Below, one piece after another: positions 1 to 59,277 of a stretch of 64,000 nucleotides of DNA (position 1 is the stretch's first letter; every line of letters begins with the position of its first letter). The stretch spans positions 339,647-403,646 of the forward strand of contig AWSN01000001.1 in the NCBI GenBank assembly GCA_000505065.1, in the 5' to 3' direction. Source of the stretch: Parcubacteria bacterium RAAC4_OD1_1. GTDB lineage: Bacteria; Patescibacteriota; Minisyncoccia; Phycocordibacterales; UBA9973. Under the pieces are notes generated by a model. The model had not been told where the DNA came from and ran no database searches. It saw only the letters and a program-made list of their open reading frames with translations. The translations under genes and the position numbers were made by a program.

Positions 1-165
1 ACTTAGGGGGAAGTTCCTATGTATTACTACCTCGTTCGCCACTAACTTTAAACGACCTTTGACCTTGATATAATCTCAATCTCCGGAAATAAAAAGTCCG
101 TTCGACTTGCATGCCTTATCCACGCCGCCAGCGTTCATCCTGAGCTAGGATCAAACTCTATTAAA
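1..165 (-). rRNA. rrs: 16S rRNA, 5' end only (gene continues past window start)
   Basis: Reverse complement of about 100-159 reads AGAGTTTGATCCTAGCTCAGGATGAACGCTGGCGGCGTGGATAAGGCATGCAAGTCGAACGG, the universal 16S 5' region. Downstream matches the h5-h6/V1 pattern (GTGGCGAACGAGGTAGTAATACATAGG). Confidence 0.9.
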
Positions 166-213
166 AAAATAGAACGAAACAAAATAAAAAATACTTTGTT
201 TTTACTGGATTAT

Positions 214-9449: not shown

Positions 9450-10013
9450 TTATATCTTCCCTATCAGGTCAACTCCAGGAGTAAGCACATCTTTCCCTGG
9501 TTCCCAACTAGCAGGACAAACATTCCCATCATGCTCTCTCACAAATTTTGCTGCCTCGAGCTTCCTTATCAATTCTTTTGTACTTCGGCCAATACTATTG
9601 TCATGTATTTCTATTGTCTTTAGTACTCCGTCTGGATCTATTATAAATGTTCCCCGAAGTGAGAGTCCTTCTTTCTCAATATAAGTTCCAAAAATATTAC
9701 AAACCTCCCCTGTCGTATCGGCAAGCATTGGGTATTCTATTTTTCCTATTGCAGGTGAGCTGTCGTGCCAAGCCTTATGAGTAAATGCTGTATCTGTACT
9801 TATACTTAGTATTTCCCCTCCCAATTTTTTAACTTCCTCATAGTGACCCTGTGCATCTTCTAATTCTGTTGGACACACAAAAGTAAAATCGGCTGGATAA
9901 AATATCAAAACTACCCACTTGCCCTTATAATTAGAAAGTTTAACTTTCTTTATTTCATTTGCCTTATAAGCATCAAGCTCAAACTCAGGCACGATATCAT
10001 TAATTTTTAACAT
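9450..10013 (-). CDS. peroxiredoxin (AhpC/TSA 2-Cys family)
   Basis: FTFVCPTE peroxidatic Cys motif, thioredoxin fold, resolving-Cys region. Confidence 0.9.
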   Translation of the reverse strand: MLKINDIVPEFELDAYKANEIKKVKLSNYKGKWVVLIFYPADFTFVCPTELEDAQGHYEEVKKLGGEILSISTDTAFTHKAWHDSSPAIGKIEYPMLADTTGEVCNIFGTYIEKEGLSLRGTFIIDPDGVLKTIEIHDNSIGRSTKELIRKLEAAKFVREHDGNVCPASWEPGKDVLTPGVDLIGKI

Positions 10014-10137
10014 ATATTATATTATACTAAGAATCAATAAAAACCCAAACCAAATACTTATTCTAATAAATAAATTTGACATTATTTAAAATAAATTGAC
10101 AAAAAATAGATTTAAAGTAATATCTAATTCAATAAAC

Positions 10138-10209
10138 GGATCTATAGTTCAGGGGCTAGAACACCAGATTTTAATTCTGGAAACATGAGTTCAACTCTCG
10201 TCAGATCTA
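10138..10209 (+). tRNA. tRNA-like gene with anticodon TTA (would read UAA; ochre-suppressor-like), possibly a pseudo-tRNA
   Basis: Cloverleaf: acceptor GGATCTA/CAGATCT (one A:C mismatch, one G:U); D-arm GTTC-AGGGGCTA-GAAC; anticodon stem CCAGA/TCTGG with loop TT-TTA-AT; 4-nt variable loop; T-arm ATGAG-TTCAACT-CTCGT. A terminator follows at 10313-10345. Confidence 0.5.
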
Positions 10210-10312
10210 CGGAAAGTTCTTTGTATATATAAACATATAAAAATGTGATTTTGGGAGAGGTCAACATTAAAGGGCATTCAACCGCTCGTTTGTTTATATT
10301 TGAAGAACTTAG

Positions 10313-10345
10313 AGCCGGTATTTGTTAAAAGTATCGGCTTTTTTC
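10313..10345 (+). terminator. rho-independent terminator
   Basis: agccggtatttgttaaaagtatcggct followed by tttttt. Confidence 0.55.
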
Positions 10346-10400
10346 TTTTTTATTATCTATTTAGCATCAAAACACTATAAAATATAACTTAAAAATAGTA

Positions 10401-10436
10401 CTGGGGTACATGGACCGTGAGTACATTTATCGAACC
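10401..10436 (-). repeat. degenerate duplicate of the tRNA-Gln 3' half
   Basis: ctggggtacatgga identical to 11352-11365 in the tRNA-Gln gene, then a 16-nt insert, then cgaacc as in the tRNA. Confidence 0.55.
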
Positions 10437-10703
10437 TTACAGGTTCAGTACACCTTTTTTGTTAATTAAATCAATTTTCTTTTCTCTTCTCCATCCTTTC
10501 AATTCAGTTTCTCGTTGGCGGGATTCTCTTAATGTTTCAAATTCTTCTTTATATTTCAAGATTACTGGCCTTCTTATTTTAGTATAATGTGCACCTGATT
10601 TAGAATTATTGTGTTGTTCTAATCTTCTCTCTAAATTATTAGTGGAACCAACATAAAAAGATTTATCTGCACATTCTAAGATGTAAGTAAAGAATTTATT
10701 CAT
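10437..10703 (-). CDS. GIY-YIG nuclease family protein (UPF0213-like)
   Basis: FFTYILECADKSFYVGSTNNLERRLEQH matches GIY-YIG. Confidence 0.8.
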   Translation of the reverse strand: MNKFFTYILECADKSFYVGSTNNLERRLEQHNNSKSGAHYTKIRRPVILKYKEEFETLRESRQRETELKGWRREKKIDLINKKGVLNL

Positions 10704-10888: not shown

Positions 10889-11275
10889 TTATTTTTTATT
10901 TCTATGCTCTTTTTTTATTTTCCAATAAATACTCTTTGAATCTGAATCAACTTTTTTATCTCTGTTTTTAAATAGATGTGCTGGATATTTTTGTTTTACT
11001 TTTTTTAATTTACTTAAAAATATTTTTCCCATATCAAAATTTAATAGAACACCCATATTGAAACAATATATTAATACATCAGCTAGTTCTTCTTTTATTT
11101 CTTCAATTTTTTCTTTATCTTTTTTAACTTCATCAAGTTCTTGATTTGTCCATTGGAATATTTCCAGTAACTCAGATGATTCTATTGATATAGATTTTGC
11201 AATATCTACTGGGCGTAAATTATCCCAATCTCGTTCTTTTAAATATTTTTTAACTTCATTTTCATATTTTTTCAT
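10889..11275 (-). CDS. MazG-like nucleotide pyrophosphohydrolase (small single-domain)
   Basis: EIFQWTNQELDE...ELADVLIYCFNM matches the MazG/NTP-PPase fold. Confidence 0.7.
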   Translation of the reverse strand: MKKYENEVKKYLKERDWDNLRPVDIAKSISIESSELLEIFQWTNQELDEVKKDKEKIEEIKEELADVLIYCFNMGVLLNFDMGKIFLSKLKKVKQKYPAHLFKNRDKKVDSDSKSIYWKIKKEHRNKK

Positions 11276-11348
11276 AGTTCAATTATATCGCTAAACAACA
11301 TAAATTAATAGATACAACGTATCTCGAGCGTAATAACCTCGCTCTTGC

Positions 11349-11422
11349 TGGCTGGGGTACATGGATTCGAACCACGATTAAAGGCTTCAAAGGCCTCTGT
11401 CCTACCATTAGACGATACCCCA
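11349..11422 (-). tRNA. tRNA-Gln (anticodon TTG), CCA encoded
   Basis: On minus strand: TGGGGTA acceptor with U1:A72 and G73 (typical bacterial tRNA-Gln), anticodon stem GAGGC/GCCTT with loop CT-TTG-AA, T-loop TTCGAAT. Confidence 0.85.
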
Positions 11423-30718: not shown

Positions 30719-31186
30719 TTGGTATATACTCTTAAAGTTATGACTATTTCTATTTTAATTTATATATTAGTGGTACTTATTATAATACTTTTAGTATGGA
30801 ACACACTTCTAGAAAGAAGGTTTAAAAGGCTTTTTATGGGAACAAAAGCAAAAGATTTAGAAGAAATTATGATATACCTAGGTAAACAAGTAGAAAATAT
30901 TAAAAACAGCCAGATCGATACAAAAAAACATTTAAATATTATAGATTCTAGATTAGATAAAACAGTTAGAAATGTAGAAATGATAAGATTTAATCCATTT
31001 ATAGATGCCGGAAGCAATCAAAGTTTTGCAATAGCATTTATAAACGATGAAGGAGATGGGGTTGTAATGTCTAGTCTTTATGCTAGAGATAGAATGAGTA
31101 TTTTTGCTAAACCAATAAATAAAGGCAAATCAACTTTTGAATTATCAACAGAAGAAAAAGAAGTTTTAGAAAAAGCTTTAAAATAA
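30719..31186 (+). CDS. DUF4446-like membrane-anchored protein
   Basis: N-terminal TM, then RFNPFIDAGSNQSFAIAFINDEGDGVVMSSLYARDR. Confidence 0.5.
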   Translation: MVYTLKVMTISILIYILVVLIIILLVWNTLLERRFKRLFMGTKAKDLEEIMIYLGKQVENIKNSQIDTKKHLNIIDSRLDKTVRNVEMIRFNPFIDAGSNQSFAIAFINDEGDGVVMSSLYARDRMSIFAKPINKGKSTFELSTEEKEVLEKALK

Positions 31187-31189
31187 ATT

Positions 31190-32707
31190 ATGAATGATAA
31201 AGATCCACAAAAAAATATTATTAAAACCAAAAGACCACCAGTAGTGGTTGTTATGGGGCATGTGGATCATGGTAAATCTACCTTGCTTGATTATATAAGA
31301 AAAACAAATATAGTAGCCGGAGAGGCTGGTGGTATCACTCAACACATCAGTGCTTATGAAGTCAATCACAAAGATGAAAATAAAAATGATAGAAAAATTA
31401 CTTTTCTAGATACCCCAGGTCATGAAGCCTTTTCAAAAATGAGAGAACGTGGAGCAATGGCTGCAGATATCGCTATACTTGTAGTTTCAGCTGAAGATTC
31501 TGTTAAAGCTCAGACAATAGAAGCTTACAATACAATAATAGAAAGCAAGACACCTTATATTGTAGCTATAAATAAAATAGATAGACCAAATGCCAATGTA
31601 GAAAAAACCAAAATGGATCTAGTGGAAAAAGGTATATATCTCGAAGGTCTAGGTGGAGATATTTCATACGTAATGATATCAGCAAAAACTGGAGCTGGTA
31701 TAAATGATCTTTTAGATATGATAATACTTGTTTCTGATATGAATGACTTTACTGGTAATAATGAAATTCCAGCAAGTGGATTTATCATTGAAGCAAATAG
31801 AGATCCTAAAAGAGGAGTAACTGCCACTTGTGTAATAAAAAATGGAACAATAAAATCTGGGATGTTTGTAGTCGCAGGTACTGCTTTAGTAACAACAAGA
31901 ATAATGGAAAACTTTATGGGTAAAATAATAAAAGAAGCTACTTTTTCATCCCCTATTAGACTAGTTGGATTCGAATCTTTACCTCAAGTTGGATCATCTT
32001 TTGAATCATTTAATACAAAAAAAGAAGCAGAAGCTTATATAGAAATGATTAAAAATGAAACTATAAATAAATGTAAAAATAACCAATTTGAAAATGAAAC
32101 AAAAAAAATTATCCCAATATTAATAAAAACAGATGTATCAGGGACAGTTGAAGCAATAGAAAAAGAAATAAACAAACTAAATAATGAAGAAATATGTTTC
32201 AAAATAATCGGATCTGGGATAGGAGCTATTAATGAATCTGATTTAAAACTTGCCGGAATAAACAAAGAAGGTATTATTGTTGGTTTTGGGGTCAAAATGG
32301 ACAATGCTTCTAAAGATTTAAATGAATCACTTGGTGTAAATATAAAATTATTTGATATTATTTACAAACTAACAGACTGGCTAAAAGAACTTATAGAAGA
32401 AAGAAGACCAAGACAAGAAATCAAAGAAATAATAGGAGAACTGAAAGTTCTTAAAATATTTGGAGAAACAAAAGGAAAAAGAGTTATTGGTGGTAAGGTG
32501 ATAAAAGGAAGAATTGCTCAAGGCTCTAATATAAAAATAATACGAAGAGATTTTGAAATAGGAACAGGGAAAATTGTCGAGCTACAATTAAATAAAATAA
32601 AAGTAAAAGAGGTGTTAGAAGATACCGAGTGTGGAGCTCTTATAGAAACAAAAGTAGATGTATCGAGCGGAGATATACTTGAATCATTTTTAATGACCTT
32701 AAAATAA
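31190..32707 (+). CDS. infB: translation initiation factor IF-2 (short form starting at G domain)
   Basis: VVVVMGHVDHGKSTLLD, DTPGHEAF, NKID G-motifs; C-terminal beta-barrel domains. Confidence 0.9.
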   Translation: MNDKDPQKNIIKTKRPPVVVVMGHVDHGKSTLLDYIRKTNIVAGEAGGITQHISAYEVNHKDENKNDRKITFLDTPGHEAFSKMRERGAMAADIAILVVSAEDSVKAQTIEAYNTIIESKTPYIVAINKIDRPNANVEKTKMDLVEKGIYLEGLGGDISYVMISAKTGAGINDLLDMIILVSDMNDFTGNNEIPASGFIIEANRDPKRGVTATCVIKNGTIKSGMFVVAGTALVTTRIMENFMGKIIKEATFSSPIRLVGFESLPQVGSSFESFNTKKEAEAYIEMIKNETINKCKNNQFENETKKIIPILIKTDVSGTVEAIEKEINKLNNEEICFKIIGSGIGAINESDLKLAGINKEGIIVGFGVKMDNASKDLNESLGVNIKLFDIIYKLTDWLKELIEERRPRQEIKEIIGELKVLKIFGETKGKRVIGGKVIKGRIAQGSNIKIIRRDFEIGTGKIVELQLNKIKVKEVLEDTECGALIETKVDVSSGDILESFLMTLK

Positions 32708-39999: not shown

Positions 40000-42435
40000 C
40001 TAATTTACACAAAAACTTTGTAATTTAGAATTGGCTACACTTCTAGTCTCACTACCAACGATTCCATCATTTTTCAAATTATTATCAATCTGGAATTGTC
40101 GAACAGCAAATAGTGTAATGCTACCATATTTACCATCAATTCCACTACTATCCAAATATCCAAGCTTATTTAATATAGTTTGTAACGATTTAACTTGACT
40201 TGTATAACTAGAACCAAAATACAAATTATTACTTATAAAATTACTATTACAAGAAACATTACCCTCTAATATATTAAAGACTAAATCTTTTTCAGATTTA
40301 GTAGAGACGTAGTCTCCAGTCAATAACCCACCAACATGGCAACCCTTATCACCAATATCTATAAAACCATCTCCATCGTTATCTTTTTTATCACGACATT
40401 CTGAAGATGTAAAAAACATTGGAGAAATTGTAGTATTTGAAGGAGTTGTAGGTGCAACATTGCCTATTACGCTAGACACACACTTCTCTGACCATCTTGC
40501 ATTAAGAGTTGTTCTGGTATTTAATCCAACCACACCATCTACATATAATCCATATTTTGTTTGGAATGATTTAACTGCATTGTATGTTGCAATCCCAAAT
40601 TTACCATCTACATTAGTTGTACTTAAATATCCTAATCCATTTAACATCTTTTGTAATACATCTACTTGGCTACCTGACATACCAGATTCTAGTTTTTCAG
40701 TTAATTGTGCTCCGCAAGTCATGTCGTTAATGAAGGTGGAAGTATTTTCATATTTTTTAATCAAGATTTCTCTTTCATCTGATTGATCTGATGAAACATT
40801 CTTACCTCTTATTTTTAAAACTAAATTATAGGTAGAAGTATTATCAACTTTTGGTATGATAATTGTTTCTTCTCCATCATTTAAAGTAGAAATACTATAC
40901 GGATATGTATTATTTGGGCCCATAATAACTAAAGCAAGTTCATCTGTAGGCAAAAAACCACCAGATGTTTTCCATTTTACAGTAATTTTATCTCCAGTCT
41001 TAAACGTCTCCCCTCCATTTGGATAAGTTACAGTTATTAAAGGAGTTGTATCGTTATCACTTGCACATTTTGAATTCCACTTTGCTCTTAAAGCATCTAC
41101 TGTGAGTTTACCTGCTATTCCATCAGCTGTTAGATTATTGTCTTTCTGAAATAGTCCTACAGAATATTGGGTCAAACCATTCCAAACATATTTACCATCA
41201 ATATCTCCATACATATAACCAAAAACACTAAGCATCTTTTGTAAAGAAGTTATTTCACTAGAAGAAGCAGGAAAACCGTACTGCTGACTAAAAACAACAG
41301 AACCCCTATTTGTTTTTAAATATTCAAAATCAGGAAATCCAGCTTTACATACCTCATCTAAACTAACAGATGAATTTAATTTTGGAGCAGTGTCAACGGT
41401 TCCACAAGATATATATTGATACCAATCTCCTGAGCAAGTCTTACCACCGTTTTGAGGAGTTGGATTTGTACATCTTCTTACTTGTTTTTGTTGATTATTT
41501 GTACAAGTTCCAGAGTCTATCCAAGCACTCCACCCTCCATCAATAGGATCAGTTATAGTCCCAGTTCTCTGAACACATTTTGTAGACATTGTTGTATAAG
41601 TATATGCTCCTGCATTCCCTGCTGCTCTCCATGTATCTATAGTTTCATTTTTGTAATTCTCTACACTTATAGTATTTGGATACCATCTTTTACAATATGT
41701 AAGTTTATCTAAAATCGCACCTGATGATCCATCTGGATCAGTTTGCCAAACACCAGATCCATCAGTAGAAATATGCTGATTAACTTTTCCCCACCAATAC
41801 ATTATACGAGGAGTTGGATCGTTTACATCGGTAGTAGCAGTACAACTTACACTTCTTCCAATACTTCCTACACACCCTGCTCCACCATTTGCTGGAGCAG
41901 GGTTTGTACAAGATCTGATCTGTGGTTTCATTCCATCAACACAATCTCCATAATCTGCCCAATCTGTCCAACCACCAGGAACTGCAACAGCAGTATTTGC
42001 TGATTTTGTTTCAGAAGTTAGCTGTACACATTTGAAAGACATTTTAGTTCCAGTGTATGCTCCTCTATTTCCTGCAGCTCTCCAAGTATCTATTGTTTCA
42101 TTTTTATAATCTTCTACAGAAACAGTATTGGTCCAAAATTTTTTACAATAAGTAAGCTTATCTAAATTAGCACCTGAGGATCCATCAGAGTCTGTCTGCC
42201 AAACACCATTACTATCTATATGTTGGTTCACCATACCCCACCAATACATTATACGAGGAGTCATATCATTTGTAGCAGAAAGAGCTGTAGCCATCTGACT
42301 ACCTTTAAGTAAAGCAATCTGTACCCTTAATTCACCCACTTCTTTTTTGAGATCATCTAAAAGTGAAGCATCTGCAAACTTCACAAAACTAAAAACTAAA
42401 ACAAAAGAAACCAATCCGACTAAAAATTTTTTCAT
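40000..42435 (-). CDS. large secreted multidomain protein: signal peptide, 2x novel MYWWG-VNQH repeat domain, 2x thrombospondin-type-1-like repeat, Kre9/KNH-like beta-sandwich, 3x peptidoglycan-binding domain
   Basis: TPRIMYWWG(K/M)VNQHI...TYCKK(F/W)(W/Y)...ETIDTWRAAGN...KCVQ occurs twice. WxxWxxC...RxCTNP(A/T)PxNGGxxCxG occurs twice. Three LQKMLxxxGY..DGKFG..T..AVxxFQ PG_binding_1 repeats. Also a CRDKKDNDGDGFIDIGDKGC Ca-binding-like motif. Confidence 0.8.
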   Translation of the reverse strand: MKKFLVGLVSFVLVFSFVKFADASLLDDLKKEVGELRVQIALLKGSQMATALSATNDMTPRIMYWWGMVNQHIDSNGVWQTDSDGSSGANLDKLTYCKKFWTNTVSVEDYKNETIDTWRAAGNRGAYTGTKMSFKCVQLTSETKSANTAVAVPGGWTDWADYGDCVDGMKPQIRSCTNPAPANGGAGCVGSIGRSVSCTATTDVNDPTPRIMYWWGKVNQHISTDGSGVWQTDPDGSSGAILDKLTYCKRWYPNTISVENYKNETIDTWRAAGNAGAYTYTTMSTKCVQRTGTITDPIDGGWSAWIDSGTCTNNQQKQVRRCTNPTPQNGGKTCSGDWYQYISCGTVDTAPKLNSSVSLDEVCKAGFPDFEYLKTNRGSVVFSQQYGFPASSSEITSLQKMLSVFGYMYGDIDGKYVWNGLTQYSVGLFQKDNNLTADGIAGKLTVDALRAKWNSKCASDNDTTPLITVTYPNGGETFKTGDKITVKWKTSGGFLPTDELALVIMGPNNTYPYSISTLNDGEETIIIPKVDNTSTYNLVLKIRGKNVSSDQSDEREILIKKYENTSTFINDMTCGAQLTEKLESGMSGSQVDVLQKMLNGLGYLSTTNVDGKFGIATYNAVKSFQTKYGLYVDGVVGLNTRTTLNARWSEKCVSSVIGNVAPTTPSNTTISPMFFTSSECRDKKDNDGDGFIDIGDKGCHVGGLLTGDYVSTKSEKDLVFNILEGNVSCNSNFISNNLYFGSSYTSQVKSLQTILNKLGYLDSSGIDGKYGSITLFAVRQFQIDNNLKNDGIVGSETRSVANSKLQSFCVN

Positions 42436-42489
42436 AATATTTACAATAAAACTAATAATAATCGACTAATAACAAAAAAATAATAAAAA

Positions 42490-44025
42490 CTAATCTAAAT
42501 TTAATAACTCAAATTTAATACGGTCCAAAACTTCATCATTATTTATAAATCCACTAACATTTAAATTATTATTTTTTTGATACTCAACGACAGCCAAACG
42601 TGTCTTCTCTCCATAAATTCCATCTATTTTATCTATATTATACCCTTTATCTTTTAAGATTTTCTGTAAAAGTTTTACATCATTACCAGACACTCCGACA
42701 ACTAAATCTCTATAAAAAGAAACATTTACTAAGTCTAATTCTTTATATTCCTGATTTTCTTGTTCTATAATTGGATTTATTTCAGGAATAGTGGCTACAC
42801 AATCAACTTCTTCATTATTAATATCAAAACACATATTTTCATTATCTACAATAGGCAATACAGAAGGTAATGTTTTCTCAGAAATACATTCTATAGACAT
42901 CTTTGTGGCTGTATAAGCTCCGGTATTTTTAACCGCTCTCCATGTATTGATAGTTTCATTTTTATAGTCTTTTGTATTTGTGATATTTAATTTTGGATAC
43001 CATTTCTTACAATATGTAAGTTTATCTAAATTTGCTCCAGAAACTCCATCTGGGTCTGTTTGCCAAACTCCAGCATTATCTATATGCTGATTAACTTTTC
43101 CCCACCAATACATTATACGAGGAGTTTTATCTATGTTTGTATCAATAATTGTCGGTAAACATTCTTTTCCTGTTATGGTGCTAAATTTATTTCCAAAACC
43201 ACAACCAATATATGGGTCTACAATAACTAATGTATCATCTTCTGGGTCTCCAGGTTGTACACATTTCATAGACATTTTTGTAGATGTCCAATTATTTTTA
43301 TTTCCTCTTTCTTTCCACTTATCGATAGTTTCCAATTTATGATCAATAACTTTTATAGTCTTTGGATACCATTTCTTACAATATGTAAGTTTATCTAAAT
43401 TTGCTCCAGAGACTCCATCTGGGTCTGTTTGCCAAACTCCAGTATTGTCTATATGCTGATTAACCTTACCCCACCAATACATTATACGAGGAGTTTTATC
43501 ATTTGTGGTAATTTTATCAGTAATAATTTTAGTTTTATCTATAGATAATTTGTAAATTAAGCCACCAGGATTTAATTTTGGATCTGTGTGAATTGAAGAA
43601 TTATTTACAACTGTAAATTTTACAGTATTATTCCCTTGTTTTAAATAATTTGTTATATCTCTTGTTGTGATATAAGTAAACGCACTACCTAAATAATTAT
43701 CTTCAAAAATAATATTGTTAATTTCTAGTATATAACCATTATCTGTAGCAAATTGTATTTGTGCTGAATTAATATCATTTTCTATGGTAAAAGTTTTTGT
43801 AAAAGTTTCAACTTCTCCATTTATAGAGTTAGAAGCATAATATGAATTCCATATCCAAAAAGCACCAGGGATACTAACCCATTTTTTATTTTTCCATGCA
43901 TAAACAGCATTGTCTCCATTACTTAATATATCTGTATTATCACTATATATATTTAAAGTATCAGCACTAGAAATACCTCCAAATGAAATAAATAAAACAA
44001 ATATGAATAATATTTTTTTTAGCAT
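42490..44025 (-). CDS. secreted paralogue: signal peptide, beta-sandwich/lectin-like N-domain, 2x MYWWGKVNQH repeat domain, C-terminal peptidoglycan-binding domain
   Basis: Two copies of TPRIMYWWGKVNQHIDN(T/A)GVWQTDPDGVSGANLDKLTYCKKWYPK...ETI(D/N)(K/T)W...KCVQ/ECIS; C-terminal LQKILKDKGYNIDKIDGIYGEKTRLAVVEYQ. Confidence 0.8.
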   Translation of the reverse strand: MLKKILFIFVLFISFGGISSADTLNIYSDNTDILSNGDNAVYAWKNKKWVSIPGAFWIWNSYYASNSINGEVETFTKTFTIENDINSAQIQFATDNGYILEINNIIFEDNYLGSAFTYITTRDITNYLKQGNNTVKFTVVNNSSIHTDPKLNPGGLIYKLSIDKTKIITDKITTNDKTPRIMYWWGKVNQHIDNTGVWQTDPDGVSGANLDKLTYCKKWYPKTIKVIDHKLETIDKWKERGNKNNWTSTKMSMKCVQPGDPEDDTLVIVDPYIGCGFGNKFSTITGKECLPTIIDTNIDKTPRIMYWWGKVNQHIDNAGVWQTDPDGVSGANLDKLTYCKKWYPKLNITNTKDYKNETINTWRAVKNTGAYTATKMSIECISEKTLPSVLPIVDNENMCFDINNEEVDCVATIPEINPIIEQENQEYKELDLVNVSFYRDLVVGVSGNDVKLLQKILKDKGYNIDKIDGIYGEKTRLAVVEYQKNNNLNVSGFINNDEVLDRIKFELLNLD

Positions 44026-55704: not shown

Positions 55705-58700
55705 TTATATTTTTATATCAATTTTTAATAGTATGTCTCCAATTTTTATTTCTTCTCCTTCATTTTCTTTTATAGAAACTTTGGCGCTTACAGCCTTTTC
55801 AAATTCTTTTTCAAATCTATTTATTATTTTCTGCCCTTCTACCCCTGTCTCTATCTCTAGATTTACCACATCATTTGGATTAAGTCCCATTTTCTTTCTC
55901 ATATCTTGGACCGCCCGTACCAACTCACGATAATTCCCCTCTTGTTTAAGTTCTGGGGTGATTTCTGTATCAAGCTGAATTGGTAAACTCATATCTATAG
56001 TAATAGTCTTAATTACTGAAGCAGAAATTTCATTCATAGAATGACCAAAATATATCTTTTTAACATTTACTTCTTCTTTAATAAGTTCTATAAATTGAAT
56101 ATCAGATTCATTTAATATTTTTGAATCATTTATTATCATTGAATTAAGTACTTGTCTTACGGGTCTTTGGTTTTTTTGTCTAGACTCCAAACCTAAAGAA
56201 ACCAATCTTCGAGTTTCCTCCATTTTTTGATTTAAATCATCTTTTAATTCTTGAATCTCTGGCCAGTTTGCAAGATGTACACTCTCTTCATCCATATCAT
56301 TTCTTAATTTCTGCCATATATCCTCACTCGCAAATGGAGCAAATGGGGCCATTAGTTTTGCTAAATTTTTTAAAACAAAATATAAAGTCTGCCTCGCCTC
56401 GCCATAGCCTTGTGCGGAGGCAGGTTGACTTGCTTCATCTTTTATTCTTTCTCTACTTCTCCTTAAATACCAAGTCGAAAGATCATCTATAAAATCTCTT
56501 ATAGATCTCACTGGCTCTAGGAGTTTATAATTTTCTAATCCTTCTGTTATATTTTTTGCAAGCTCAGCAAATCTTACCAAAATCCATTGATCAAGAACAT
56601 TAGCCTCCTCAAGGCCTTGCCTTGGACCCCCTAAAGGCAAGGCCTTTTCCCGGCTCTCTAATTCTTTATCTCTATAAAGCTCATAAAAAGCTAAAACATT
56701 GTAAAGTAAATTGAAAACTTTATTATGAAGTTCAGAGACAGTTTTTTCATCAAAGTTTTTTGATTCTCCTGGTTGATTCACCGAATACATCCACATACGG
56801 AGAGTGTCTGCACCATATTTATGTATCATCTCCCATGGGTCAACAATATTCCCAAGTGATTTACTCATCTTCTTTCCATTTGCATCTAATATATGACCAA
56901 GACAAATCACATTCTTATACGCTTTTCCTCGCCCCATTAAAACCCCCACAGCATGAAGTGTATAGAACCACCCACGAGTCTGATCTATTGCCTCTGAAAT
57001 AAAATCAGCTGGGTAATTTATCTCTCCATCAAACGGATAGTGATCTTGCGAGAATGGCATTGTGCCAGAGTCTAGCCAGACATCCATAACTTCTTTTGAT
57101 CTTTCTAATTTACCACTACATTCACATTGCAATTCTACTTCATCAATATAAGGCCTATGTAAATCAAGCTCATAGTTCTCATCATGAGGAATAGGATAAA
57201 AGGGTACTTCTCTCCATTCTGCATTCTTCAAATAATTATAATCCTTTATCATTTTTAAAGACTCTTCTCCATTAAGCCCCATAGATCCAGCGACAGCAAG
57301 CCAAGACGGCCCACCGTGAGTTACTATCAAAATATTTTTCCCAGAATATTTATCTTCCATTTCATAAAGGAAACTCATAATCCTTCTTTTCATATCATTG
57401 TATGATTCATTGCCATCTTCCCCATGATAAAATGTCTCCACTGTATTTGGGTAATCTTTATGATATTCTGTCCAAGTTCTACCTTCATACATAGGAAGAG
57501 ACATTTCGTGAAGCCTATCATCTACTATTACTTTTTCATCCTCTAATCCAATTACATCTTGCACAATCTCAGATGTTTCTCTTGCTCTAACAAAAGGAGA
57601 AGTAAAAATAAAATCAATATTTTTATCTTTCAAATTTTCTGCATTTTCTTTTACTTGATTCTTTCCATTTTCTGTTAAATGGTCTTCATTATTATATGAA
57701 GTGCTCACAAGATCAGTCAGATTATTGTCCGCCTCTCCGTGACGCATCACAAAATATTTATTCCCAGATTTCTTGGTTTTATTTTTTAAATCTTCTAGAC
57801 TTCTTATGACTTCAATTTTATTACACTTCTCGCATTTCCAGACCGGAAGTGGAGTACCCCAATAACGCTCCCGAGAAATTGCCCAATCTTTAATATCAGA
57901 AAGCCACTCACCAAATCGCCCTTCTTTTATATATGAAGGTTCCCAATTTATTCCTTTATTTTCTTCTACAAGCTTATCACGGAGGGCTGACATTTTGATA
58001 TACCAAGAATCTCGAGCATAGTATATGAGCGCAGTTTTACAACGCCAACAATGTGGGTATGAGTGCTCATATTTTTCTTTTTTAAATAATAATCCTCGAT
58101 GTGCCAAATCTTTGATTATTTCTACGGCAGTTTCTTCATCCCCGCCTGCAGTAGCTATGCTATCAGCATTGCGGGCAGGACGCACAAATCGCCCTTCAAG
58201 GAACCCAGTTCCCGGAAGGAATTTGCCATCAAGCCCTACAAGGTGATGCTTTGGAAGCCCAATCTCATTACCAAGCACAAAGTCATCTTGCCCATACATC
58301 ACTGCAGTGTGTACTACCCCTGTACCATCCTCTGTAGTCACAAAATCCGCAGGATAAACTTTAAAAGCTTTCTCAAGTTTATTTTTTTCACTATCAGAAA
58401 TAGTATCTTTTAAAAATGGATAAAGTGGTTCATATTCTAAACCAACTAAATCTGAGCCTTTAAATTCTTCTAGAATTTCATATTCACCTTCTATTGTGGA
58501 CAAGCGAGCCTTTGCAAGAATATAAATTTCATTTTCTTTTTTTATTTTTACATAATCAATATCCTTCCCCACAGCAAGTGCCACATTCCCTGGTAATGTC
58601 CAAGGTGTTGTCGTCCAAGCCAAAATATAAGTATTTTCTTGTCCTTTTATTTTAAACTTCGCATATACAGATAAATCTTTTACATCTTGGTACCCTTGAG

Positions 58701-59277
58701 CAAGCTCATGAGAAGAAAGCGTAGTTCCACATCTTGGACACCAAGGCACAACTTTATAATCTTTAAACAAAAGTCCTTGATCATTTACATTTTTTATAAT
58801 ATTCCAAACAGATTCTATGTAATCATTATGATAAGTCACATAAGCATTCTTCTGATCCACCCAGTATCCGATACGGTCTGTAAATTTCTCCCAGATGTCA
58901 GTATACTCCCAAACGGATTCTTTACATTCATGATTAAATTTTGAAATTCCATATTCTTCAATTGCCTTTTTGGAAGTAAGTCCTAATTTTTTCTCTACTT
59001 GAAGTTCTACTGGTAATCCATGAGTATCCCAGCCACCTTTCCTGCGGACATGGTAGCCTTTCATTGTTTTATATCTTGGTATTGCATCCTTGAAAGCTCT
59101 CGCCTCTAGGTGGTGTATCCCCGGCTTTCCATTGGCAGTCGGAGGGCCTTCATAGAAAACATACTCCCCTTTTGGCGCATCCTTCTCTAAACTTTTTTGA
59201 AATATATTATTTTCTTTCCAAAATTCTAAAATTTTTTCTTCATTCTGTGCCCTTTGTGATTTTATTTCTTCGTTCAT
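55705..59277 (-). CDS. ileS: isoleucyl-tRNA synthetase (type 2) with about 185-aa histidine-phosphatase (PGAM-like) domain inserted in the catalytic core
   Basis: HIGH (PPTANGKPGIHH), CP1 editing domain, KMSKS, anticodon-binding domain. Residues about 505-690 (YFVMRHGEADNN...ILIVTHGGPSW) lie between the WKCEKC zinc knuckle and LHRPYIDE. Confidence 0.9.
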   Translation of the reverse strand: MNEEIKSQRAQNEEKILEFWKENNIFQKSLEKDAPKGEYVFYEGPPTANGKPGIHHLEARAFKDAIPRYKTMKGYHVRRKGGWDTHGLPVELQVEKKLGLTSKKAIEEYGISKFNHECKESVWEYTDIWEKFTDRIGYWVDQKNAYVTYHNDYIESVWNIIKNVNDQGLLFKDYKVVPWCPRCGTTLSSHELAQGYQDVKDLSVYAKFKIKGQENTYILAWTTTPWTLPGNVALAVGKDIDYVKIKKENEIYILAKARLSTIEGEYEILEEFKGSDLVGLEYEPLYPFLKDTISDSEKNKLEKAFKVYPADFVTTEDGTGVVHTAVMYGQDDFVLGNEIGLPKHHLVGLDGKFLPGTGFLEGRFVRPARNADSIATAGGDEETAVEIIKDLAHRGLLFKKEKYEHSYPHCWRCKTALIYYARDSWYIKMSALRDKLVEENKGINWEPSYIKEGRFGEWLSDIKDWAISRERYWGTPLPVWKCEKCNKIEVIRSLEDLKNKTKKSGNKYFVMRHGEADNNLTDLVSTSYNNEDHLTENGKNQVKENAENLKDKNIDFIFTSPFVRARETSEIVQDVIGLEDEKVIVDDRLHEMSLPMYEGRTWTEYHKDYPNTVETFYHGEDGNESYNDMKRRIMSFLYEMEDKYSGKNILIVTHGGPSWLAVAGSMGLNGEESLKMIKDYNYLKNAEWREVPFYPIPHDENYELDLHRPYIDEVELQCECSGKLERSKEVMDVWLDSGTMPFSQDHYPFDGEINYPADFISEAIDQTRGWFYTLHAVGVLMGRGKAYKNVICLGHILDANGKKMSKSLGNIVDPWEMIHKYGADTLRMWMYSVNQPGESKNFDEKTVSELHNKVFNLLYNVLAFYELYRDKELESREKALPLGGPRQGLEEANVLDQWILVRFAELAKNITEGLENYKLLEPVRSIRDFIDDLSTWYLRRSRERIKDEASQPASAQGYGEARQTLYFVLKNLAKLMAPFAPFASEDIWQKLRNDMDEESVHLANWPEIQELKDDLNQKMEETRRLVSLGLESRQKNQRPVRQVLNSMIINDSKILNESDIQFIELIKEEVNVKKIYFGHSMNEISASVIKTITIDMSLPIQLDTEITPELKQEGNYRELVRAVQDMRKKMGLNPNDVVNLEIETGVEGQKIINRFEKEFEKAVSAKVSIKENEGEEIKIGDILLKIDIKI

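What the first reader, a model, noticed from the sequence alone, without database searches (positions are those of the whole stretch)
10138..10209. tRNA-like gene with UUA anticodon (ochre-suppressor-like) in a tRNA-associated accessory stretch
The sequence folds into a complete cloverleaf with canonical D-arm, T-loop (TTCAACT) and a perfect anticodon stem whose loop reads UU-UUA-AU. That anticodon would decode UAA (and probably UAG). The housekeeping genes here clearly use UAA as their main stop codon, so a functional suppressor would be deleterious. This argues for a phage- or mobile-element-derived tRNA, a recoding tRNA used by an infecting phage, or a pseudogene; the A7:C66 mismatch and 4-nt variable loop favour the pseudogene reading. 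It lies next to a GIY-YIG nuclease gene, a MazG gene and a degenerate tRNA-Gln fragment.
Basis: seen in the sequence. Interest (0 to 1): 0.55.

Follow-up and report, generated by a model that had tools for sequence, protein, structure and literature searches.

The report
Stop-codon-reading tRNA in a CPR bacterium
A well-formed tRNA gene whose anticodon matches the genome's main stop codon (UAA) is really there, but it was already noted in 2013 for this very genome, and it looks like a recently altered spare lysine-type tRNA, not a phage gene or a change of genetic code.

Summary
Window 10138-10209 (+) is a high-scoring tRNA (Rfam 58.4 bits, ARAGORN anticodon UUA). It has its own sigma-70 promoter, a structured 3' trailer and a terminator. 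TAA ends 44 of 52 genes in the window.

The window comes from Parcubacteria (OD1/Nomurabacteria) bacterium RAAC4_OD1_1. Kantor et al. 2013 already reported this "suppressor tRNA that reads UAA" and left it unresolved.

New here:
- The gene is restricted to one lineage. It is absent from the syntenic region of 64 related genomes.
- A close relative (adjacent AhpC 97% identical) carries, at the same place and with the same promoter and flanks, a tRNA with a canonical Lys loop (CUUUUAA, anticodon UUU).
- The two tRNAs differ at 18 of 72 bases, about the neutral rate, yet each keeps 20 of 21 stem pairs (P about 7e-4). A plain decaying pseudogene is therefore unlikely.
- There are no phage genes nearby, no similar viral tRNAs, no TAA-interrupted genes, and no adaptation of backup stop codons.

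Best reading: a spare Lys-type tRNA whose anticodon loop changed to UUA, giving a natural and probably weak ochre suppressor. A translation-silent tRNA-like module and a very young relic remain serious rivals. Interest is moderate to low.

The parts
10096..10123 (+). Sigma-70-type promoter of the tRNA: TTGACA, 16 nt spacer, TAATAT. The -10 hexamer ends 14 nt before the tRNA.
   Evidence: Promoter scan scores 10 of 12. Both hexamers are identical in the L166 ortholog while the spacer has diverged.
10138..10209 (+). tRNA with anticodon UUA (anticodon at 10171-10173; loop UUUUAAU; discriminator A73; CCA not encoded).
   Evidence: ARAGORN; Rfam 58.4 bits. Identical in four independent assemblies. 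The ortholog with anticodon UUU is at L166:1895-1967.
10214..10310 (+). Structured 3' trailer co-transcribed with the tRNA. It is a long hairpin closed by AAGTTCTT...AAGAACTT with inner hairpins.
   Evidence: MFE fold of the whole unit has z = -3.75. Inverted repeat I10. The consensus fold with L166 keeps the stems, and three of its pairs changed on both sides and stayed paired. The first 41 nt (10210-10250) are 36/41 identical to L166, against 54/72 for the tRNA. No Rfam family matches.
10311..10351 (+). Intrinsic terminator of the tRNA unit (13-bp hairpin followed by a T tract).
   Evidence: Terminator scan. The hairpin is kept in L166 through four changes on both sides of a pair.
9450..10013 (-). 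Peroxiredoxin (AhpC) gene, transcribed divergently from the tRNA. It is the only neighbour shared with the ortholog locus.
   Evidence: Pfam AhpC-TSA. It is 97% identical at the protein level and 92% at the DNA level to the L166 AhpC.
10401..10414 (-). Context only: a copy of the 3' end of tRNA-Gln(UUG). It marks the far edge of the MazG-like/GIY-YIG stretch, about 50 nt beyond the tRNA's terminator.
   Evidence: Exact 14-nt direct repeat with 11352-11365. The same kind of repeat lies downstream of tRNA-Gln in at least 8 relatives.

Best explanation
This is a real, separately transcribed, lineage-restricted accessory tRNA gene of the OD1/Nomurabacteria bacterium RAAC4_OD1_1.

It is the ortholog of a tRNA in a close relative that has a canonical lysine anticodon loop (C32-U33-UUU-A37-A38, discriminator A73). 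In the RAAC4 lineage the loop has become U32-U33-UUA-A37-U38. That makes it a natural ochre-suppressor allele of the kind known from E. coli supG/supL, which are mutant lysine tRNAs.

The genome still uses the standard code with TAA as its main stop.

Inferred mechanism:
- The gene is transcribed from its own promoter.
- The transcript is trimmed by RNase P and 3' processing enzymes and given CCA, as other tRNAs of this genome that lack an encoded CCA must be.
- It is charged, probably poorly, by LysRS, which relies mainly on U34/U35/U36 and A73.
- It reads UAA only at low efficiency. Both release factors compete for UAA. In addition, A37 is unlikely to be hypermodified: A36-A37-U38 lacks the A36A37A38 motif needed for i6A, and t6A is characteristic of tRNAs with U36 (from memory).
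- Read-through tails would be short (median 8 codons to the next in-frame stop), so the allele is tolerated.

Shown: gene, fold, transcription signals, orthology, lineage restriction, standard code. Inferred: charging, amino acid, activity and its level.
For: - It is a real tRNA: 58.4 bits, with all conserved tertiary positions present.
- It has its own promoter and terminator. Both are conserved or compensated in the ortholog.
- The sequence is identical in four assemblies from different samples.
- Orthology with L166: the same divergent AhpC (97% aa), the same promoter, the same 3' flank CGGAAAGTTCTTTGTAT, and a tRNA(UUU) of 61.5 bits there.
- The L166 loop CUUUUAA has the same C32/A37/A38 context and A73 as this genome's own tRNA-Lys(CUU).
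- 18 of 72 differences, yet 20 of 21 pairs are kept in each. Random substitution gives 14.2 pairs on average; P = 7e-4.
- 10 of the 18 differences are GC in L166 and AT here, and GC content is 0.50 against 0.40. This fits change on the RAAC4 branch.
- The gene is an extra: it is absent from the syntenic region of 64 related genomes and from AhpC loci at 84-86% identity.
- Standard code: TAA ends 44 of 52 ORFs, and DnaX and AhpC have the same length as their homologues.
- Lys-tRNA ochre suppressors exist: supG/supL (Prather et al. 1983, as cited in PMC9164415).
- A36A37A38 is necessary for MiaA in E. coli (PMC5699536).
Against: - No evidence of expression, charging or read-through could be obtained.
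- The amino-acid identity is not established. The body resembles no single isotype. The exact anticodon arm CCAGAUU-NNN-AUUCUGG is mostly found on tRNA-Glu(UUC) in viral contigs (62 of 93 matches). UUA is also one step from UUC and UUG.
- No outgroup was found, so the direction UUU to UUA rests on parsimony and base composition.
- I could not show that the genome has another tRNA-Lys(UUU).
- The tRNA changes at the neutral rate (25%, against 22% at four-fold sites of AhpC), while tRNA-Tyr is identical between this genome and a relative with 88% DnaX identity. This is unusual for a tRNA used in decoding.
- Backup stop codons show no sign of adaptation to a suppressor.
- The 3' trailer is better conserved than the tRNA, which suggests that selection may act on something other than decoding.
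Confidence: 0.42

Rival explanations
1. Translation-silent tRNA-like module. The cloverleaf is kept because it serves another purpose. It could be a processing or stabilising handle (an RNase P / 3'-end processing site) for the structured ~100-nt RNA co-transcribed downstream. It could also be a tRNA used outside the ribosome. On this reading the anticodon is free to drift between UUU and UUA.
For: - Neutral-rate sequence change with stems preserved.
- All three anticodon-loop differences fall at positions that matter for decoding: 32, 36 and 38.
- The 3' trailer is more conserved than the tRNA and has pairs that changed on both sides and stayed paired.
- No promoter is predicted between the tRNA and the trailer.
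- No footprint of suppression was seen in the window.
Against: - Only two alleles are known, so drift of the anticodon is not demonstrated.
- The L166 loop is a perfect canonical Lys loop, which argues that at least that allele decodes.
- The anticodon stem, which acceptor/T-arm recognition would not need, is also preserved (29:41 G.U to A-U).
- The trailer matches no known RNA family.
- No function can be proposed for the trailer.
Confidence: 0.25
2. Very young relic. A redundant second tRNA-Lys(UUU) copy lost its function recently through the anticodon-loop change. It is now a neutral or mildly harmful leftover that has not yet decayed. This is the 'pseudo-tRNA' of Kantor et al. 2013.
For: - Lineage-specific and therefore dispensable.
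- Substitution rate equal to the neutral rate.
- AT-biased changes, and weakened stems: G1.U72, A7.C66 and U50.G64.
- Kantor et al. proposed this reading (PMC3812714).
Against: - 20 of 21 pairs are intact despite 18 substitutions, including two double changes that keep a pair (4:69 C-G to U-A, and 50:64 G-C to U.G by two transversions); P = 7e-4.
- The score of 58.4 bits is equal to that of housekeeping tRNAs.
- The -35 and -10 hexamers are perfectly conserved while the spacer diverged.
- The allele is identical in four assemblies from different samples.
Confidence: 0.25
3. Phage- or mobile-element-borne suppressor tRNA, used to translate recoded (TAA-containing) genes of an element or an infecting phage.
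For: - It lies about 50 nt from an att-like copy of the tRNA-Gln 3' end that bounds a MazG-like/GIY-YIG stretch.
- Its GC content is low (0.40) compared with the other tRNAs.
Against: - It lies outside the repeat-bounded stretch, and the surrounding genes are housekeeping genes.
- No integrase or phage genes are present.
- No viral contig matches its anticodon arm or its D-arm, and no close phage BLAST hit was found.
- The ortholog sits next to AhpC in a different, non-phage context.
- Phage recoding described so far concerns TAG and TGA (bioRxiv 10.1101/2021.08.26.457843).
- No in-frame TAA was found in window genes.
Confidence: 0.03
4. Genetic-code change: UAA is (partly) a sense codon in this organism.
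For: Only the presence of the tRNA itself, and the near-absence of TGA stops (1 of 52; 5% genome-wide according to PMC3812714), which shows that stop-codon usage here is unusual.
Against: - 44 of 52 ORFs end at TAA, with 87% coding density under table 11.
- DnaX (350 aa) and AhpC (187 aa) end where their homologues end.
- The five adjacent in-frame gene pairs are clearly separate genes.
Confidence: 0.01

Closest known systems
E. coli ochre suppressors supG/supL (mutant lysine tRNAs; Prather, Mims & Murgola 1983, cited in PMC9164415)
   Same: A chromosomal Lys-type tRNA gene whose anticodon reads UAA while the cell keeps the standard code. The suppressor coexists with normal termination. It arises by an anticodon change from UUU (my recollection for supG/supL; here shown by the ortholog).
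   Different: supG/supL were selected in the laboratory and differ from the parent essentially at the anticodon. Here the allele is natural and fixed in a wild population. It sits in a fast-evolving accessory gene, carries extra loop changes (C32U, A38U), and its charging and activity are untested.
[quoted passage not shown] 2013, mBio, PMC3812714)
   Same: It is the same gene in the same genome. The adjacent AhpC is ETB63887.1 of Parcubacteria bacterium RAAC4_OD1_1, and the paper's text was read.
   Different: [quoted passage not shown] The ortholog with UUU, the lineage restriction, the compensatory evolution, the transcription signals and the 3' trailer are added here.
Phage-encoded suppressor tRNAs of stop-codon-recoded phages (Borges et al. 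2022; preprint read)
   Same: A tRNA with an anticodon against a stop codon, present in a standard-code cellular background.
   Different: Those read TAG or TGA, lie in phage genomes and accompany in-frame stop codons in late genes. This one reads TAA, is chromosomal, has no viral relatives and has no recoded genes nearby.
tRNA-Gly(UCA) of SR1/Absconditabacteria and Gracilibacteria (code 25; PMC3812714, PMC13059738)
   Same: A stop-codon-reading tRNA in a CPR/Patescibacteria genome.
   Different: There UGA is a sense codon genome-wide and the tRNA is conserved across the lineage. Here UAA remains the main stop and the tRNA is confined to one species-level clade.

Membership tests
Canonical elongator tRNA (Rfam RF00005) | Cloverleaf with 7-bp acceptor stem, D, anticodon and T arms, scoring above the family threshold | tested here: met
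   58.4 bits against a gathering score of 29. ARAGORN agrees. 20 of 21 stem pairs are standard.
Canonical elongator tRNA (Rfam RF00005) | Conserved tertiary nucleotides (U8, A14, G18G19, A21, U33, G53-T54-Psi55-C56, A58, C61; G15:C48) | tested here: met
   Read directly from the sequence and from the cmscan alignment.
Canonical elongator tRNA (Rfam RF00005) | Matured (CCA end), aminoacylated and used by the ribosome | not testable with these tools
   CCA is not encoded. Going by the 3' ends in the alignment, the same appears true of three other tRNAs in the window. No expression data are available.
Nonsense (ochre) suppressor tRNA, supG/supL type | 7-nt anticodon loop with an anticodon complementary to UAA | tested here: met
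   Loop U-U-U-U-A-A-U on a perfect 5-bp stem. No alternative register gives a sense anticodon.
Nonsense (ochre) suppressor tRNA, supG/supL type | Derived from a sense tRNA by an anticodon change | tested here: met
   The ortholog at the same locus in L166 has the Lys loop CUUUUAA. The direction of change is inferred, because no outgroup was found.
Nonsense (ochre) suppressor tRNA, supG/supL type | Inserts an amino acid at UAA in vivo | not testable with these tools
   Indirect test only. Distances to the next in-frame stop are the same as in relatives that lack the tRNA (median 8 against 7.5 codons). This is inconclusive for a weak suppressor.
Phage-encoded recoding suppressor tRNA | Lies in a phage or prophage genome | tested here: not met
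   Neighbours are AhpC, a zinc-finger protein, a sigma factor, DnaX, SerRS and the like. No phage genes are present. The ortholog is in a chromosomal context.
Phage-encoded recoding suppressor tRNA | In-frame copies of the suppressed stop codon in associated genes | tested here: not met
   No TAA-interrupted genes among 52 ORFs. The in-frame neighbour pairs are separate genes.
Phage-encoded recoding suppressor tRNA | Relatives among viral tRNAs | tested here: not met
   No viral contig matches its anticodon arm or its D-arm. There is no close hit in 50,697 phage records.
tRNA pseudogene | Degraded fold or low covariance score | tested here: not met
   58.4 bits. There is a single mismatch (A7:C66), which is G:U in the ortholog.
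tRNA pseudogene | Neutral decay without compensation; loss of expression signals | tested here: not met
   Stems are kept through 18 substitutions (P = 7e-4). The promoter hexamers and the terminator hairpin are conserved. A very recent loss of function cannot be excluded.
Stop-codon reassignment (UAA as sense) | The codon is rarely used for termination and occurs in frame at conserved positions | tested here: not met
   TAA ends 44 of 52 ORFs, and protein lengths equal those of homologues.

The most novel reading that the evidence does not exclude
The tRNA is kept by selection as a working part of a small 'tRNA + structured RNA' transcription unit next to AhpC. Two versions fit.

(a) It is a naturally maintained Lys-inserting ochre suppressor in a bacterium that ends about 85% of its genes with UAA. 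It would be held at a low level by its unusual loop (U32, U38) and would perhaps buffer AAA-to-TAA nonsense mutations in a small, AT-drifting genome.

(b) It is a tRNA-like module that no longer decodes, whose anticodon can therefore flip between sense and stop. It would serve to process or stabilise the conserved 3' RNA, or to donate an amino acid outside the ribosome.
Probability: 0.25. Interest if true: 0.6.

Novelty: already known. Interest (0 to 1): 0.33.

Why it matters
If the tRNA is active, it would be a rare natural case of a chromosomal ochre suppressor coexisting with UAA as the dominant stop codon. That bears on how stop codons begin to be reassigned and on how much read-through a minimal cell tolerates.

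The pair of alleles (UUU in one species, UUA in its close relative, same locus) is a clean natural example of an anticodon switch in an accessory tRNA. It gives a concrete experiment: charge and test both alleles.

If the tRNA is inactive, it is a caution for annotation. 'Sup' tRNA calls in metagenome-assembled genomes do not imply recoding.

Tried and rejected
- **Viral origin.** A viral-contig scan with the exact anticodon arm plus T-loop found nothing. With the anticodon left open there were 91 hits, mostly tRNA-Glu(UUC) and none with UUA. A scan with the D-arm pattern shared by both alleles found nothing. BLAST of both alleles against phage records gave only about 74% matches, spread over several isotypes.
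- **More orthologs through the conserved 3' flank.** The 17-mer gave 18 chance hits in viral contigs. The T-loop-plus-flank pattern gave 5 chance hits in JGI metagenomes and no tRNA.
- **Synteny in genomes.** 64 Nomurabacteria/Paceibacteria loci around dnaX contain no tRNA(UUA). The contig of the closest species (L094, DnaX 88%) ends before the region.
- **AhpC relatives at 84-86% identity** (L167-L169) have no tRNA and no remnant of its promoter.
- **Isotype by body similarity.** Comparison with 557 distinct tRNAs, with the anticodon arm masked, gave no clear isotype. I rejected my early idea that the tRNA is simply a tRNA-Glu(UUC) with C36A. That idea rested on the anticodon arm alone, and the ortholog has a Lys loop.
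- **Search for the genome's own tRNA-Lys(UUU) or tRNA-Glu.** Walking 10 kb beyond each window end found no further tRNAs. Walking further was judged too unlikely to succeed.
- **Read-through fusions.** Five in-frame neighbour pairs were checked. All are unrelated genes, for example DUF4446/IF-2 and RNase J/MFS.
- **Rfam search for the 3' trailer and for the tRNA-Gln-associated element.** No family matched.
- **A correction to my own reading.** That was wrong, because the fragment exists.

Full report

Yes. ARAGORN calls a tRNA with anticodon UUA at 10138-10210. The Rfam tRNA model matches 10138-10209 at 58.4 bits (threshold 29, E 4.9e-10). That is inside the 55-66 bit range of the five ordinary tRNAs of the window.

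The sequence has a 7-bp acceptor stem with G1:U72 and one mismatch (A7:C66). It has a 4-bp D stem with an 8-nt loop containing GG, and a perfect 5-bp anticodon stem. The 7-nt anticodon loop is U-U-UUA-A-U, with the anticodon at 10171-10173. The variable loop has 4 nt and the T arm has the loop TTCAACT. The discriminator is A and no CCA is encoded. No other register gives a sense anticodon.

TAA ends 44 of 52 ORFs of at least 100 aa (TAG 7, TGA 1), with 87% coding density under the standard bacterial code.

- GIY-YIG at 10437-10703 and MazG-like at 10889-11275.
- A 14-nt exact copy of the 3' end of tRNA-Gln at 10401-10414. The intact tRNA-Gln(UUG), at 64.2 bits, lies at 11349-11422.

**2. Where the window comes from, and what was already known**

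The adjacent AhpC protein is identical to ETB63887.1 of "Parcubacteria bacterium RAAC4_OD1_1", on a 693,530-bp contig. DnaX is annotated as Candidatus Nomurabacteria. The same contig occurs in the Rifle sediment metagenome PRJNA167727.

The genome paper (Kantor et al. 2013, PMC3812714) says the following. [quoted passage not shown] So the observation itself is published. Its explanation is not.

**3. Anatomy of the unit**

- A near-consensus promoter (TTGACA, 16 nt, TAATAT; 10096-10123) ends 14 nt before the tRNA.
- An intrinsic terminator lies at 10311-10351.
- Between the tRNA and the terminator lies a ~100-nt trailer (10214-10310). It folds into a long hairpin closed by AAGTTCTT/AAGAACTT. 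The whole transcript folds with z = -3.75.
- AhpC (9450-10013) is transcribed divergently, starting 124 nt from the tRNA.
- The locus is base-for-base identical in the window and in three fetched assemblies (L001, L002, L193).

**4. Relatives**

I fetched dnaX plus or minus 10 kb from 64 Nomurabacteria/Paceibacteria genomes (DnaX 47-88% identical). None has a tRNA(UUA), whereas tRNA-Gln(UUG) near dnaX is present in most.

In several relatives GIY-YIG lies within about 0.2-0.5 kb of the zinc-finger gene that here follows AhpC. AhpC, the tRNA and MazG-like are absent from that position. AhpC loci at 84-86% identity have no tRNA and no trace of its promoter.

The decisive locus is L166, a 2.7-kb contig from another sample whose AhpC is 97% identical. 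At the same place, divergent from AhpC, it has the same promoter hexamers, the same 3' flank (CGGAAAGTTCTTTGTAT...) and an equivalent terminator. There it carries a 61.5-bit tRNA with the loop C-U-UUU-A-A, a canonical lysine anticodon loop, and discriminator A73. This genome's own tRNA-Lys(CUU) has the same C32/A37/A38/A73 features.

**5. How the two alleles differ**

The two tRNAs differ at 18 of 72 positions (25%). This equals the divergence at four-fold degenerate sites of the adjacent AhpC (22%). By contrast, the first 41 nt of the 3' trailer differ at only 5 positions.

Housekeeping tRNAs do not behave like this. tRNA-Tyr is identical over 84 nt between this genome and the closest sampled species (DnaX 88%).

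Yet both alleles keep 20 of 21 stem pairs. Seven pairs changed:
- Two changed on both sides and stayed paired (4:69 C-G to U-A; 50:64 G-C to U.G).
- Two improved (13:22 and 29:41).
- One went from G.U to A.C (7:66).

Random placement of the same number of transitions and transversions leaves 14.2 pairs on average and reaches 20 in 0.07% of trials. The -35 and -10 hexamers are unchanged while the spacer diverged. The terminator and the trailer stems are kept through changes on both sides of several pairs.

Ten of the 18 differences are G/C in L166 and A/T here, and GC content is 0.50 against 0.40. This suggests that most change happened on the RAAC4 branch.

The three loop differences (C32U, U36A, A38U) turn CUUUUAA into UUUUAAU.

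**6. Tests of the alternatives**

*Code change or programmed recoding.* No gene in the window is interrupted by TAA. The five neighbour pairs that happen to be in frame are unrelated genes, for example DUF4446/IF-2 and RNase J/MFS. C-termini match those of homologues.

*Adaptation to a suppressor.* The distance from a TAA stop to the next in-frame stop has a median of 8 codons, with 26% of genes having one within 3 codons. In 36 related loci that lack the tRNA the figures are 7.5 codons and 24%.

*Phage or mobile origin.* No viral contig matches the anticodon arm or the D-arm, and nothing close was found in phage records. There are no phage or integrase genes nearby. The tRNA lies just outside the repeat-bounded MazG-like/GIY-YIG stretch.

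*Amino-acid identity.* The anticodon arm with an open anticodon is mostly found on tRNA-Glu(UUC) in viral contigs. The rest of the molecule resembles no single isotype. Lysine is therefore assigned from orthology only.

**7. Interpretation**

The best-supported account is as follows. It is an accessory Lys-type tRNA gene, present only in the RAAC4/L166 clade. In RAAC4 its anticodon loop was remodelled to UUA. Formally that is the same kind of event that produced the E. coli ochre suppressors supG/supL, which are mutant lysine tRNAs (Prather et al. 1983, via PMC9164415).

Activity is probably low, for three reasons:
- UAA is read by both release factors (textbook knowledge).
- A36-A37-U38 lacks the A36A37A38 motif that is necessary for isopentenylation of A37 (PMC5699536).
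- t6A37 belongs to tRNAs with U36 (from memory).

Short read-through tails would make a weak suppressor tolerable.

Two rivals remain serious, because nothing here measures expression or charging:
- A tRNA-like module that no longer decodes and is kept for the sake of the co-transcribed 3' RNA or for a non-ribosomal use. This would explain neutral-rate change with preserved stems and a trailer better conserved than the tRNA.
- A very recent relic of a redundant tRNA-Lys copy.

Phage-borne recoding and a code change are effectively excluded for this window.

**8. Verdict**

The feature is real and correctly described. It has been known in the literature since 2013. It is neither a phage gene nor an obviously decaying pseudogene. 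The new element is the orthologous UUU allele and the evidence that the fold and the transcription signals are under selection.

Interest is moderate to low, unless activity or a non-decoding role is shown.

Noticed in passing
window 10401-10457 and 11300-11422; L095, L097, L100, L103, L111, L119, L120, L123 (downstream of their tRNA-Gln): The 3' end of tRNA-Gln(UUG) is repeated in the same orientation downstream of the gene. In 8 relatives the repeat lies 141-217 nt away, with 0-2 mismatches to the tRNA's last 14 nt. Here it lies 951 nt away and is exact, with MazG-like and GIY-YIG in between. In the relatives the stretch between holds a terminator-like hairpin, then an inverted copy of the tRNA's 3' part (GCTGGGAGA...TAGGGAATCGAA) interrupted by a hairpin, then further hairpins, then the direct copy. 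It is either an att-type scar of a recurrent insertion at tRNA-Gln or a conserved ~150-nt tRNA-Gln-derived structured RNA. No Rfam family matches it.
   Followed up: partly
window 10214-10310 (and L166:1790-1890, - strand): The trailer between the tRNA(UUA) and its terminator is a conserved, structured ~100-nt RNA. It has pairs that changed on both sides and stayed paired, it is better conserved than the tRNA itself, it has no predicted promoter of its own, and it matches no Rfam family.
   Followed up: partly
window, all ORFs: TGA is almost unused as a stop codon (1 of 52 ORFs). This agrees with the 5% reported for the genome by Kantor et al. 2013. In 36 related loci it is 25 of 518.
   Followed up: partly
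window 55705-59277 (-): A 1190-aa class I aminoacyl-tRNA synthetase has a histidine-phosphatase (His_Phos_1) domain inserted between two tRNA-synt_1 segments (precomputed Pfam hits for L196). It is probably IleRS; I infer this from the domains and did not test it. It recalls the interrupted IleRS that Kantor et al. described for the SR1 genome.
   Followed up: no
window 1-166 and L194:10450-13728: The 16S rRNA gene at the window start is followed within about 3.3 kb by secA. That leaves no room for a 23S gene, so the rRNA genes appear to be unlinked. tRNA-Lys(CUU) lies about 880 nt from the 5' end of the 16S gene.
   Followed up: no
window 40000-44025 (-): Two adjacent large proteins (811 and 511 aa) combine peptidoglycan-binding repeats with significant Pfam matches to APP_N (amyloid A4 N-terminal heparin-binding domain). 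This is an unusual domain for a bacterium.
   Followed up: no
window 30719-32707 (+): A DUF4446 gene and a short (505-aa) IF-2 gene are in the same frame, separated only by TAA and one codon. Four other neighbour pairs are also in frame (4415/5162, 11503/11848, 17224/16354, 35967/38085). All appear to be separate genes, but they are where read-through by a UAA suppressor would create fusions.
   Followed up: partly
literature: The same genome encodes a characterised cyclodipeptide synthase, an enzyme that uses aminoacyl-tRNAs outside translation. The abstracts read link the enzyme family to His-containing products. No link to this tRNA was found.
   Followed up: no
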